From IMG/VR virus record IMGVR_UViG_2648501400_000008: DNA of 11,941 bases. One strand, given 5' to 3'. Positions 6,258 through 6,950 of the stretch are shown here, piece by piece (position 1 is the first letter of the stretch; the number at the start of each line of letters is the position of its first letter). A program made the position numbers and the translations under genes. The DNA is from a virus. Taxonomy: Duplodnaviria > Heunggongvirae > Uroviricota > Caudoviricetes. Below the pieces are notes generated by a model, which saw nothing but the letters and a program-made list of their open reading frames with translations, was not told the DNA's origin and did no database searches.

Positions 6258-6950
6258 TTAATTGTGTCGCTTAAGGGTTTGTGACTGGCTGATTAAGACC
6301 TTTCCAAAGACCATAAACCGGTGTTCATTTTCGCTGGTAATTCCCCATTCACGGTAAATCTGGTTATCAGAAATCACCAGTAGTTTGTCAGGTATCATTT
6401 GCAGTCGTTTGACATAAATTTTATCATCAAAACCAAATACATAGATACCATCTCCATCAAACTGATTGATACTGACATCAACGAAGATGAGATCTCCTGG
6501 CTCAATGGTTGGACACATACTGTCCCCACGAACGTTGATAACTTTAATGTGATTGGCTGGCCGTCCGCCAAACATCGATACAGCATTATCAGTTCTGTAT
6601 TCAATGGCATGAATCACATCAATGACATCACCGCCCTGGATAAGGCCATTTCCCGCACTGGCACTGACATCCAGCATTTCAATACGGAATACATCCTTCA
6701 CCTGCGCAACATCCTCACTAATACTGTTTTTACATACAGTATTACTTTTGACGTCTGAGGTAAAGAGATCAGCAATATCAACACCTAAGCTCCTGGCAAT
6801 ATTACTCAGGGCTTGTTCAGTGAATTGTTTCTGCTTACCTGTTTCCAGGCGTGAGATATTCGCCGCATCCACTCCTATTGCTTCAGCGAGATCGGCGATT
6901 TTCATGTTCTTCGCCTGGCGAAGTTGTCTGACTCGGTTTCCTATGTTCAT
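6258..6950 (-). CDS. cI-like prophage repressor: N-terminal XRE-type HTH plus C-terminal S24 (LexA-like) peptidase domain (230 aa)
   Basis: N-terminal RVRQLRQAKNMKIADLAEAIGVDAANISRLETG is a classic XRE HTH; the C-terminal half (…INVRGDSMCPTIEPGDLIFVD…VKRL…) has the Ser/Lys autoprotease pattern. There is no strong ribosome-binding site, consistent with a leaderless pRM-type transcript. Confidence 0.9.
   Translation of the reverse strand: MNIGNRVRQLRQAKNMKIADLAEAIGVDAANISRLETGKQKQFTEQALSNIARSLGVDIADLFTSDVKSNTVCKNSISEDVAQVKDVFRIEMLDVSASAGNGLIQGGDVIDVIHAIEYRTDNAVSMFGGRPANHIKVINVRGDSMCPTIEPGDLIFVDVSINQFDGDGIYVFGFDDKIYVKRLQMIPDKLLVISDNQIYREWGITSENEHRFMVFGKVLISQSQTLKRHN

What the first reader, a model, noticed from the sequence alone, without database searches (positions are those of the whole stretch)
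6721..6742. Near-consensus LexA (SOS) box embedded in the cI coding sequence
ATACTGT-TTTTACAT-ACAGTAT has perfect 7-bp arms matching the E. coli LexA box format (TACTGT-N8-ACAGTA). It is the only CTGT-N8-ACAG in the window and lies in the linker-coding part of cI (codons for …NTVCKNSI…). This prophage also encodes a LexA DNA-binding-domain-only protein (10285-10611). The site could be an internal SOS-controlled promoter or roadblock, or a target of the phage LexA-like protein; it could also be chance.
Basis: partly seen in the sequence, partly recalled or inferred. Interest (0 to 1): 0.5.

Follow-up and report, generated by a model that had tools for sequence, protein, structure and literature searches.

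The report
Conserved LexA operator inside prophage repressor gene
A near-perfect binding site for the host DNA-damage repressor LexA lies inside the coding sequence of this prophage's own repressor gene and has been kept at the DNA level across many bacterial genera, next to a conserved internal translation start, which suggests an undescribed damage-controlled gene within the repressor gene.

Summary
Window 6722-6741 (palindrome 6720-6743) is a LexA box. On the cI coding strand it reads TACTGTATGTAAAAACAGTA, one base from the E. coli umuDC operator. It is the only such site in the window.

In 29 diverged orthologues of this S24 repressor, down to about 46% identity and across about 15 enterobacterial genera, the box sits at the same codons (70-77) of an otherwise hypervariable linker. 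Codon 71 is always ACT and codon 76 always AGT. Codon 75 encodes seven different amino acids but always ends in C. Selection therefore acts on the DNA, not the protein.

A second conserved nucleotide feature lies 29-32 nt downstream: the strongest Shine-Dalgarno signal in the gene, followed by an in-frame GTG or ATG at the start of the C-terminal protease domain. Relatives without the box lack it, and several lineages lost both together.

My best reading (about 0.4) is a LexA-repressed internal transcription unit that makes a DNA-binding-domain-less, UmuD-like repressor isoform during the SOS response. Roadblock and antisense-promoter readings remain open.

The phage's LexA-like protein is real but occurs in too few box-bearing loci to be the site's main partner. 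I found no published description.

The parts
6722..6741 (-). LexA (SOS) box, 20-mer. It reads TACTGTATGTAAAAACAGTA on the cI coding strand. The extended perfect palindrome spans 6720-6743.
   Evidence: The box is conserved at the same codons in 29 orthologues. It is identical to the umuDC operator in the O157:H7, SfII, Citrobacter and Klebsiella variants.
6258..6950 (-). cI-type repressor gene (230 aa): HTH domain, linker and S24 peptidase domain. The Ala99-Gly100 cleavage site and the Ser144 and Lys181 catalytic residues are invariant in the family.
   Evidence: The protein is 99.6% identical to the phage mEp460 repressor and 96.5% identical to SfII cI. The region is present in 1040 of 5426 complete E. 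coli genomes.
6693..6758 (-). Linker-coding region (codons 65-86). It is hypervariable at the protein level except for the box.
   Evidence: Amino-acid entropy is 2-3.7 bits in the flanking codons. Third-position entropy is 0 at codons 71, 75 and 76.
6736..6741 (-). Candidate -10 hexamer (TACTGT, the 5' arm of the box) of a sense-direction internal promoter. This is inferred.
   Evidence: It has the same geometry as the sequence upstream of umuD, TTGATC-17 bp-TACTGT. It is the best sigma-70-like hit in 18 of 29 orthologues, but the scores are only 5-8.6 bits. Position 1 is T in 26 of 29, whereas the symmetric position 20 is A in only 15 of 29.
6759..6764 (-). Candidate -35 hexamer (TTTACC, codons Phe63-Thr64), 17 bp upstream of TACTGT. 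This is weak and inferred.
   Evidence: There is no extra synonymous constraint here, so this part is unproven.
6712..6716 (-). Shine-Dalgarno-like GAGGA, 10 nt upstream of the in-frame GTG at codon 84.
   Evidence: -6.4 kcal/mol against the anti-SD sequence. The family-wide SD signal is the strongest in the whole gene.
6699..6701 (-). In-frame GTG (Val84), the candidate internal start in this subclade. Codon 87 (6690-6692) is GTA here but is GTG or ATG in 24 of 29 orthologues.
6258..6701 (-). Putative nested ORF encoding a repressor isoform without the DNA-binding domain (about 147 aa). It would carry a short N-terminal arm with the Ala-Gly cleavage site plus the S24 domain, a UmuD-like layout.
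   Evidence: This is inferred. No expression data are available.
6957..6962 (-). Conserved TGTAAT 6 nt upstream of the cI ATG, the likely PRM -10. It would make the full-length cI mRNA leaderless.
   Evidence: The main start has no SD (mean -2.7 kcal/mol).
6970..7035 (.). OR operator cluster (TTGCGC-N4-GCAA type repeats) between cI and cro.
6163..6202 (.). OL operator pair, downstream of the cI terminator at 6220-6237 (-).
7048..7308 (+). cro-like gene. It co-varies with cI across the orthologous loci.
10285..10611 (+). LexA DNA-binding-domain-only protein (108 aa). It is a possible secondary binder of the box in this phage.
   Evidence: It is present in only a minority of box-bearing loci.

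Best explanation
The 20-mer is a functional operator for the host LexA repressor, nested in the linker-coding part of the prophage repressor gene. I put this step at about 0.9.

Most likely it represses an internal promoter that reads in the same direction as cI, with the TACTGT arm as the -10 element, as upstream of umuD. While LexA is intact the promoter is shut. When DNA damage leads to LexA cleavage, a short transcript starts in or just after the box. This transcript is translated from the conserved internal Shine-Dalgarno sequence plus GTG/ATG, 29-32 nt downstream of the box.

The product would be a repressor isoform lacking the DNA-binding domain. It would keep the Ala-Gly cleavage arm and the S24 dimerisation/protease domain, an architecture like UmuD.

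I infer that this isoform forms mixed dimers with full-length repressor, or otherwise alters its RecA-stimulated self-cleavage. That would couple prophage induction to LexA as well as to RecA. Promotion of induction (a built-in antirepressor) is my preferred direction. A protective decoy role is the alternative.

What is shown: the site, its DNA-level conservation, the conserved internal ribosome-binding site and start codon, and their joint presence and joint loss. What is inferred: LexA binding, the promoter, the transcript, the protein and its effect.
For: (1) Site quality. The box is one base from the umuDC operator, which I verified in K-12 sequence, and is identical to it in the O157:H7/SfII variants. 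The surrogate HI is 2.68.

(2) DNA-level conservation in 29 orthologues at about 46-100% identity from about 15 genera. The site sits at nt 208/211 in every one. Codon 71 is ACT in 29/29, against 35% of Thr codons elsewhere. Codon 76 is AGT in 29/29, against 15% of Ser codons elsewhere. Codon 75 encodes 7 different amino acids with third base C in 29/29. Apart from Met and Trp codons, the only codons in the gene with third-position entropy of 0.45 bit or less are 71, 73, 75 and 76.

(3) Specificity. Across 652 kb of loci, HI of 7 or less picks out almost only this position. The other hits include known SOS operators: umuDC, dinI-like genes and lexA itself.

(4) Internal start. Mean SD energy is -7.1 to -7.8 kcal/mol at codons 86-89, against a gene mean of -2.1. 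Codon 87 is GTG or ATG in 24/29, whereas GTG is 20% of Val codons elsewhere. Arg codons in the 8 preceding codons are AGG/AGA in 19/21, against 29% elsewhere. The distance from the box is fixed at 29/32 nt.

(5) Coupling. None of 17 box-negative relatives has both the SD and the start. Dryocola, Yersinia and the P0019 lineage lost the box and the start/SD together.

(6) Strand asymmetry. Box position 1 is T in 26/29 but the symmetric position 20 is A in only 15/29. This fits a sense-strand TAnnnT -10.

(7) TTTACC-17-TACTGT is the best sigma-70-like match in 18/29 orthologues.
Against: No transcript, protein or binding data exist for this site.

The promoter is weak by consensus: 5-8.6 bits, against a background best of 5.9 +/- 1.9. 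Its putative -35 shows no synonymous constraint and is poor in the second subclade (TTCTCT).

In the window itself codon 87 is GTA, so the start must be the GTG at codon 84, whose SD spacing of 10 nt is long. Two box-bearing orthologues (L002, L025) lack a convincing start.

The full-length mRNA appears leaderless. The internal start could therefore already be used on the PRM transcript, independent of LexA.

The box-positive set is one clade. Joint presence of the box and the start is therefore partly shared ancestry. The independent co-losses are few (3-4).
Confidence: 0.4

Rival explanations
1. Roadblock. LexA bound about 220 bp inside the gene hinders RNA polymerase coming from PRM (or an establishment promoter) and lowers repressor synthesis in undamaged cells. 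LexA cleavage transiently raises repressor synthesis. This would buffer the prophage against mild or brief SOS signals.
For: No well-conserved promoter was found on either strand. The site is strong, umuDC-like. The linker is the only part of the gene that can absorb a 20-bp DNA constraint, which would explain the position without needing a nested gene.
Against: It does not explain the conserved internal SD plus GTG/ATG 29-32 nt downstream, or its loss together with the box. It does not explain the asymmetry between box positions 1 and 20. To my knowledge LexA is not an established elongation roadblock in vivo.
Confidence: 0.2
2. Antisense promoter. The box is the operator of an SOS-induced promoter on the window + strand. 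Its transcript would run against cI and toward OR and cro. It would reduce repressor synthesis by antisense pairing or transcriptional interference, and possibly supply cro message.
For: In the second subclade the box is followed on the antisense strand by TATCAT, a 5/6 match to the -10 consensus, with an xxxACA hexamer overlapping the other arm. LexA-controlled antisense or toxin RNA pairs are known in E. coli (from memory).
Against: The best antisense promoter positions are inconsistent among orthologues. The window and O157 variants give TATTAC, which lacks the critical final T, and a poor -35. The hypervariable linker would have to supply the -35. This reading does not explain the internal SD and start on the sense strand.
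Confidence: 0.15
3. The site is chiefly the target of the phage's own LexA-DNA-binding-domain-only protein (10285-10611). This protein lacks the S24 catalytic domain, so it cannot self-cleave as LexA does, and it would re-occupy the box after host LexA is destroyed.
For: The protein keeps the LexA recognition helix (RS.NAA.EHL) and is encoded in the same prophage. It probably binds SOS boxes.
Against: tblastn finds the gene near cI in only about 6 of roughly 40 box-bearing loci, with 5-kb flanks. The box is conserved in phages with entirely different early-right regions. It can therefore be at most an add-on in this subgroup.
Confidence: 0.05
4. The site is not a protein-binding DNA site. It would instead be a conserved peptide motif (T-V-x-x-x-S), an mRNA hairpin, a recombination junction between domain modules, or chance.
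For: The palindrome can form a 5-6 bp RNA stem. T71, V72 and S76 are nearly invariant residues. The site lies at the domain boundary.
Against: A peptide motif does not explain the invariant synonymous choices (ACT, AGT, xxC), nor seven different amino acids at codon 75. The arms never covary, they stay fixed to the LexA consensus letters, and the consensus fold is only -2.6 kcal/mol. Chance is excluded. A 20-bp island with a variable centre is too short for homologous exchange, and that idea would not predict the LexA consensus.
Confidence: 0.02

Closest known systems
E. coli umuDC operator/promoter and UmuD
   Same: The O157:H7, SfII, Citrobacter braakii and Klebsiella spallanzanii variants carry the identical 20-mer TACTGTATATAAAAACAGTA. 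The window differs at one base. The box has the same orientation relative to the downstream reading frame. Upstream of umuD a TTGATC lies 17 bp before TACTGT, and here TTTACC lies 17 bp before TACTGT. The putative product has the UmuD layout: an S24 domain preceded by a short arm carrying the cleavage site, with no DNA-binding domain.
   Different: Here the unit is nested in frame inside a larger repressor gene. The -35 is much weaker. Nothing suggests a role in translesion synthesis. That the umuDC promoter uses these hexamers is recalled from memory, not tested here.
LexA-controlled antirepressor modules of prophages (coliphage 186 tum; Gifsy and Fels-2 antirepressors, PMC3121763; N15 antC)
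   Same: Host LexA gates a phage function that inactivates the maintenance repressor, linking induction to the SOS response.
   Different: In those phages the LexA box lies in an intergenic promoter of a separate, unrelated antirepressor gene. Their repressors are usually not RecA-cleavable. Here the repressor keeps an intact cleavage site and catalytic residues, and the box is inside its own coding sequence.
CTX-phi (LexA plus RstR at PrstA) and GIL01 (LexA plus gp7) direct use of LexA as phage co-repressor
   Same: Host LexA binds phage DNA in the immunity region and takes part in the lysis-lysogeny switch.
   Different: Those sites overlap the lytic promoters. This one is about 220 bp inside the lysogeny gene and away from OR and OL.
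Nested or overlapping products of regulatory genes: Tn5 Tnp/Inh, phiC31 repressor c isoforms, 434 Hex overlapping the 434 repressor gene (PMC3564112)
   Same: A second product arises from inside a regulator's gene and modulates the full-length protein. Inh is an N-terminally truncated, DNA-binding-deficient inhibitor. Hex affects RecA-mediated repressor cleavage.
   Different: None of these is known to be gated by a consensus LexA box inside the coding sequence. Hex is in another reading frame. The Tn5 and phiC31 details are recalled from memory.

Membership tests
LexA (SOS) operator of Gammaproteobacteria | A 20-bp palindrome matching TACTG(TA)5CAGTA, with invariant CTG...CAG at 10-bp spacing | tested here: met
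   There are 17/20 matches and perfect 8-bp arms. The consensus is quoted in PMC6590174.
LexA (SOS) operator of Gammaproteobacteria | A low heterology index, within the range of proven operators | tested here: met
   HI is 2.68 on a matrix built from 29 boxes recalled from memory. On the same matrix umuDC scores 1.32, sulA 3.4 and recA 4.5. This is not the published Lewis 1994 matrix, so absolute values differ. The orthologues score 0.66-6.6.
LexA (SOS) operator of Gammaproteobacteria | Evolutionary conservation of the site beyond what the coding sequence requires | tested here: met
LexA (SOS) operator of Gammaproteobacteria | Binding by LexA in vitro or in vivo | not testable with these tools
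   No binding data are available. No paper describing the site was found.
LexA (SOS) operator of Gammaproteobacteria | Overlap with a promoter, such that transcription is SOS-inducible | tested here: inconclusive
   The sense candidate TTTACC-17-TACTGT is positionally consistent in 18/29 but weak. The antisense candidates are inconsistent.
Nested in-frame gene (internal isoform) | An in-frame start codon preceded by a Shine-Dalgarno sequence, conserved at the nucleotide level | tested here: met
   GTG or ATG at codon 87 in 24/29, and at codon 84 in the window subclade. This position carries the strongest SD signal in the gene. Rare AGG/AGA Arg codons are enriched 19/21. The feature is absent in 17/17 box-negative relatives.
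Nested in-frame gene (internal isoform) | Its own transcript and a detectable shorter protein | not testable with these tools
   No transcriptome, ribosome-profiling or proteome data are accessible here.
LexA-controlled antirepressor module (186 Tum / Gifsy type) | A separate antirepressor gene with a LexA box in its intergenic promoter | tested here: not met
   The only SOS box in the window (HI of 11 or less) is inside cI. The resemblance is functional only.
Lambda-type RecA-cleavable repressor (S24) | An HTH domain, an Ala-Gly cleavage site and the Ser/Lys catalytic dyad | tested here: met
   Pfam finds HTH_3 and Peptidase_S24. S98-A99-G100, S144 and K181 are invariant in 26 diverse members.

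The most novel reading that the evidence does not exclude
This widespread family of enterobacterial prophage repressor genes is a two-product gene. Besides the full-length repressor it would encode, from a LexA-gated internal promoter and a conserved internal ribosome-binding site, a UmuD-like isoform lacking the DNA-binding domain. This isoform would be made only during the SOS response and would act on the full-length repressor as a built-in antirepressor. Induction would then require, or be sharpened by, LexA cleavage in addition to RecA-stimulated self-cleavage of the repressor.
Probability: 0.35. Interest if true: 0.85.

Novelty: new variant of a known kind. Interest (0 to 1): 0.72.

Why it matters
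LexA control of prophage induction is known only through separate antirepressor genes or LexA sites at lytic promoters. Here a consensus SOS operator is embedded in the coding sequence of a RecA-cleavable repressor. It has been maintained purely at the DNA level across about 15 genera and is coupled to a conserved internal translation start.

The family is common. It occurs in 1040 of 5426 complete E. coli genomes, including O157:H7, O103, O111 and APEC O1 strains. It is also in the Shigella serotype-converting phage SfII and in phage mEp460.

If the nested isoform exists, it would add a new logic element to the classic lambda-type switch, with two SOS inputs acting on one gene. It would also be a clear bacterial case of a regulatory site and a second product hidden inside a well-annotated gene.

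Even the minimal reading matters for predicting which prophages respond to SOS-inducing antibiotics. That reading is that LexA binds inside cI and tunes repressor supply. The claim is directly testable with synonymous mutations that destroy the box without changing the protein.

Tried and rejected
- **RNA-structure explanation.** RNAalifold on 26 orthologous 100-nt segments found only the box's own 5-bp stem. The arms were invariant with no covariation, and the energy was -2.6 kcal/mol. No pairing occurred between the upstream pyrimidine-rich codons and the internal SD. Rejected.
- **svsR / C0293 lead.** A paper reports an sRNA at the 3' end of a cI gene in an E. coli prophage (PMC12803456). 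K-12 C0293 has no meaningful similarity to this window. Dropped.
- **K-12 e14 repressor ymfK.** It has no SOS box at HI of 7 or less, although e14 YmfL is 97% identical to the window's CII-like protein.
- **More distant S24 repressors.** The P22-C2-like group, Mannheimia phage CI, Stx2a phage CI and a Pseudomonas phage repressor have no intragenic box. The feature is specific to this family.
- **Viral-contig scan.** It returned only 99-100% identical copies: 79 of 80 have the same box and one has A7T. This added no diversity.
- **Out-of-frame ATG.** The ATG created by GAT-GTN codons is not conserved.
- **-10 inside the box centre (TATAAA/TATAAT).** It scores well only in two Pantoea/Rosenbergiella loci.
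- **L054 as a natural stand-alone C-terminal-domain gene.** It is a decayed pseudogene.
- **Literature.** Six full-text searches found no description of a LexA box inside a cI-type gene. Subscription-only papers are not covered.

Full report
**1. The observation.**

Window 6720-6743 reads AATACTGT-TTTTACAT-ACAGTATT, a perfect 8-bp inverted repeat. The 20-mer at 6722-6741 matches the SOS-box consensus TACTG(TA)5CAGTA (quoted in PMC6590174) at 17 of 20 positions. CTGT-N8-ACAG occurs once in the window. A match to the consensus with 3 or fewer mismatches occurs once and in none of 200 shuffles.

On the coding strand of the repressor gene the site reads TACTGTATGTAAAAACAGTA. I checked the E. coli K-12 sequence upstream of umuD. 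Its operator is TACTGTATATAAAAACAGTA, so the window site differs from one of the strongest E. coli SOS operators at a single base.

I built a heterology-index matrix from 29 E. coli boxes. These were recalled from memory, so this is not the published matrix. On it the site scores 2.68, against umuDC 1.32, sulA 3.4 and recA 4.5. Nothing else in the window scores 11 or below, and 0 of 300 random windows reach 7 or below.

**2. Context.**

The site lies in codons 70-77 of a 230-aa repressor at 6258-6950 on the minus strand. The protein has an HTH domain (residues 3-64) and a Peptidase_S24 domain (residues 104-218). The Ala99-Gly100 cleavage site and the Ser144 and Lys181 catalytic residues are invariant in the family.

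The gene sits in a lambda-like immunity region:
- Operator repeats of the TTGCGC-N4-GCAA type lie at OR (6970-7035) and OL (6163-6202).
- A terminator lies after cI at 6220-6237.
- A divergent cro gene lies at 7048-7308, followed by a CII-like gene.

A conserved TGTAAT lies 6 nt before the cI ATG, and the main start has no Shine-Dalgarno sequence. This suggests a leaderless PRM transcript, as in lambda.

The protein is 99.6% identical to the repressor of phage mEp460 and 96.5% identical to cI of Shigella phage SfII. The region is present in 1040 of 5426 complete E. coli genomes.

**3. Comparative test of the site.**

The repressor family is large: 1147 proteins at E of 1e-20 or better. In the 120 best proteins the linker is hypervariable except for an island T-V-x-x-x-S.

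A scan of one genome per species gave 59 loci with a gradient of identity. In the 29 distinct orthologues down to about 46% identity that I analysed further, CTG-N10-CAG sits at nucleotide 208 or 211 of the gene. The genera include Shigella, Citrobacter, Kluyvera, Klebsiella, Buttiauxella, Trabulsiella, Pantoea, Mixta, Rosenbergiella, Proteus, Serratia, Atlantibacter, Enterobacter and Erwinia. Several orthologues carry exactly the umuDC 20-mer.

The encoded peptides differ (TVYKNS, TVDSYS, TVGIYS, TGYSYS, TGVLSS and others) while the DNA arms stay fixed:
- Codon 71 is ACT in 29/29. ACT is 35% of Thr codons elsewhere in these genes.
- Codon 76 is AGT in 29/29, against 15% of Ser codons elsewhere.
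- Codon 75 encodes seven different amino acids but always ends in C, the C of CAG.
- Apart from Met and Trp codons, the only codons in the whole gene with third-position entropy of 0.45 bit or less are 71, 73, 75 and 76.

Scanning all 652 kb of fetched loci at HI of 7 or less returns almost only this position. The other hits include genuine SOS operators that serve as positive controls: umuDC, dinI-like genes and the lexA gene's own box.

The site is therefore under purifying selection as DNA, with the letters of the LexA consensus. It is not a peptide motif, and it is not an RNA hairpin. The arms never covary, and the consensus fold is only -2.6 kcal/mol.

More distant S24 repressors lack the site. 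These are the P22-C2-like group, Mannheimia, Stx2a-phage and Pseudomonas repressors, and K-12 e14 YmfK.

**4. A second conserved nucleotide feature.**

The domain-start codon (codon 87 in the window's numbering) lies 29 or 32 nt downstream of the box in every box-bearing orthologue examined. The orthologues carry a purine-rich Shine-Dalgarno-like stretch 5-9 nt before this codon. In most of them the codon is an in-frame GTG, or ATG in two Pantoea species. It lies at the V-[FY]-R-[VI]-[ED] start of the C-terminal domain.

- Averaged over 29 orthologues, this is the strongest anti-SD complementarity in the whole gene: -7.1 to -7.8 kcal/mol at codons 86-89, against a gene mean of -2.1. Only 7.7% of positions reach -6.
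- Codon 87 is GTG or ATG in 24/29, while GTG is 20% of Val codons elsewhere.
- Arg codons in the eight preceding codons are AGG/AGA in 19 of 21, against 29% elsewhere.
- In the window's own subclade codon 87 is GTA, but a GTG at codon 84 is preceded by GAGGA at -6.4 kcal/mol.
- None of 17 box-negative relatives has both an SD and a start at this position.
- Within the family, Dryocola, Yersinia similis and the P0019 lineage have lost or degraded the box. They have also replaced the Val/Met codon and/or lost the SD.

**5. Promoter search.**

On the sense strand the best sigma-70-like match in 18 of 29 orthologues uses the 5' arm TACTGT as the -10 element, with a T-rich hexamer exactly 17 bp upstream (TTTACC in the window). 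This geometry matches TTGATC-17-TACTGT upstream of umuD.

The scores are modest, 5-8.6 bits against a background best of 5.9 +/- 1.9. The putative -35 shows no synonymous constraint.

Box position 1 (T in 26/29) is more conserved than its symmetric partner, position 20 (A in 15/29). This is what a sense-strand TAnnnT -10 would add to the LexA requirement.

Antisense candidates are inconsistent. They look reasonable in one subclade (TATCAT after the box) but poor in the window. The promoter is therefore inferred, not shown.

**6. The phage LexA-like protein.**

The 108-aa product of 10285-10611 is a LexA DNA-binding domain (PF01726). It is 43% identical to LexA residues 1-86 and keeps the recognition helix. 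It also keeps an 'LLAGE' motif aligned with the LexA cleavage site, but has no protease domain. It may well bind SOS boxes.

However, tblastn finds it near cI in only about 6 of roughly 40 box-bearing loci. It cannot be the reason the box is conserved. Host LexA is the common factor across phages with different immunity specificities.

**7. Interpretation.**

The most economical reading of the two coupled features is a nested, LexA-gated expression unit. It would comprise operator/promoter, a leader of about 30-40 nt, an SD, and a GTG start. Its product would be the C-terminal two thirds of the repressor.

That product would have the layout of UmuD: an S24 domain with a short cleavable N-terminal arm and no DNA-binding domain. 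In several orthologues it would be governed by the same operator sequence as umuDC.

I favour a dominant-negative (antirepressor-like) effect through mixed dimers. A decoy effect on RecA-stimulated cleavage is equally compatible with the sequence data.

Rivals are a transcriptional roadblock, an antisense promoter, and primary use by the phage LexA-like protein.

One caveat applies. Because the PRM message seems leaderless, the internal start might also be used constitutively.

**8. Novelty.**

Six full-text searches found no description of an SOS box inside a cI-type gene or of a nested isoform in this family. The nearest analogues are:
- LexA-controlled antirepressors (PMC3121763).
- LexA as a phage co-repressor in CTX-phi and GIL01.
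- Overlapping or nested products such as 434 Hex (PMC3564112) and Tn5 Inh.

I rate this a new variant of a known kind.

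Noticed in passing
window 337-1932 (-): This 531-aa protein matches the PADLOC dCTPase (dCTP deaminase anti-phage defence) model at E 2e-164 and carries a dCMP/cytidine deaminase domain. It appears to be a defence gene carried as cargo near the prophage's left end.
   Followed up: partly
window 10285-10611 (+): The LexA-DNA-binding-domain-only protein keeps an 'LLAGE' motif that aligns with the LexA cleavage site 'VAAGE', although it has no protease domain. It might be cleaved in trans or act as a pseudo-substrate.
   Followed up: partly
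window 6957-6962 (-) and orthologous loci: A conserved TGTAAT lies 6 nt upstream of the cI ATG, and the main start has no Shine-Dalgarno sequence (mean -2.7 kcal/mol). The full-length repressor mRNA from PRM is therefore probably leaderless, as in lambda.
   Followed up: partly
window 6700-6713: A sequence resembling one half of the repressor's own operator (GTTGCGCA, as in OR and OL) lies inside cI, 9 nt from the LexA box. It may be chance.
   Followed up: no
window 7301-7858 (+) versus L063 8269-8826 (K-12 e14): The CII-like protein (Pfam Phage_CP76) is 96.8% identical to YmfL of the K-12 cryptic prophage e14. The e14 repressor YmfK belongs to a different type without an SOS box. This is a clear mosaic joint between cro and the CII-like gene.
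   Followed up: partly
L036:1126, L032:839, L034:786, L054:2949: Erwinia loci carry another strong SOS box (AACTGTATTTTTATACAGCA). In L036, the one locus I inspected, it lies upstream of a DinI-like ORF, next to a tailspike-like gene. These sites were useful as positive controls for the scan.
   Followed up: partly
L047 and L055: Contigs labelled as a Parachlamydiaceae MAG and as Actinomadura rugatobispora carry typical enterobacterial copies of this repressor family. They are very likely assembly or sample contamination.
   Followed up: no
L064-L143 (80 near-identical viral contigs): Codon 67, three codons upstream of the box, is polymorphic (GTC, CTC or TTC, giving Val, Leu or Phe) among otherwise 99-100% identical copies. 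The box is unchanged in 79 of 80.
   Followed up: no
L054 4880-5410: An Erwinia genome holds a decayed pseudogene copy of the repressor. The box has degraded (TACTGGAGATACATATAGCA) and the reading frame is broken.
   Followed up: partly
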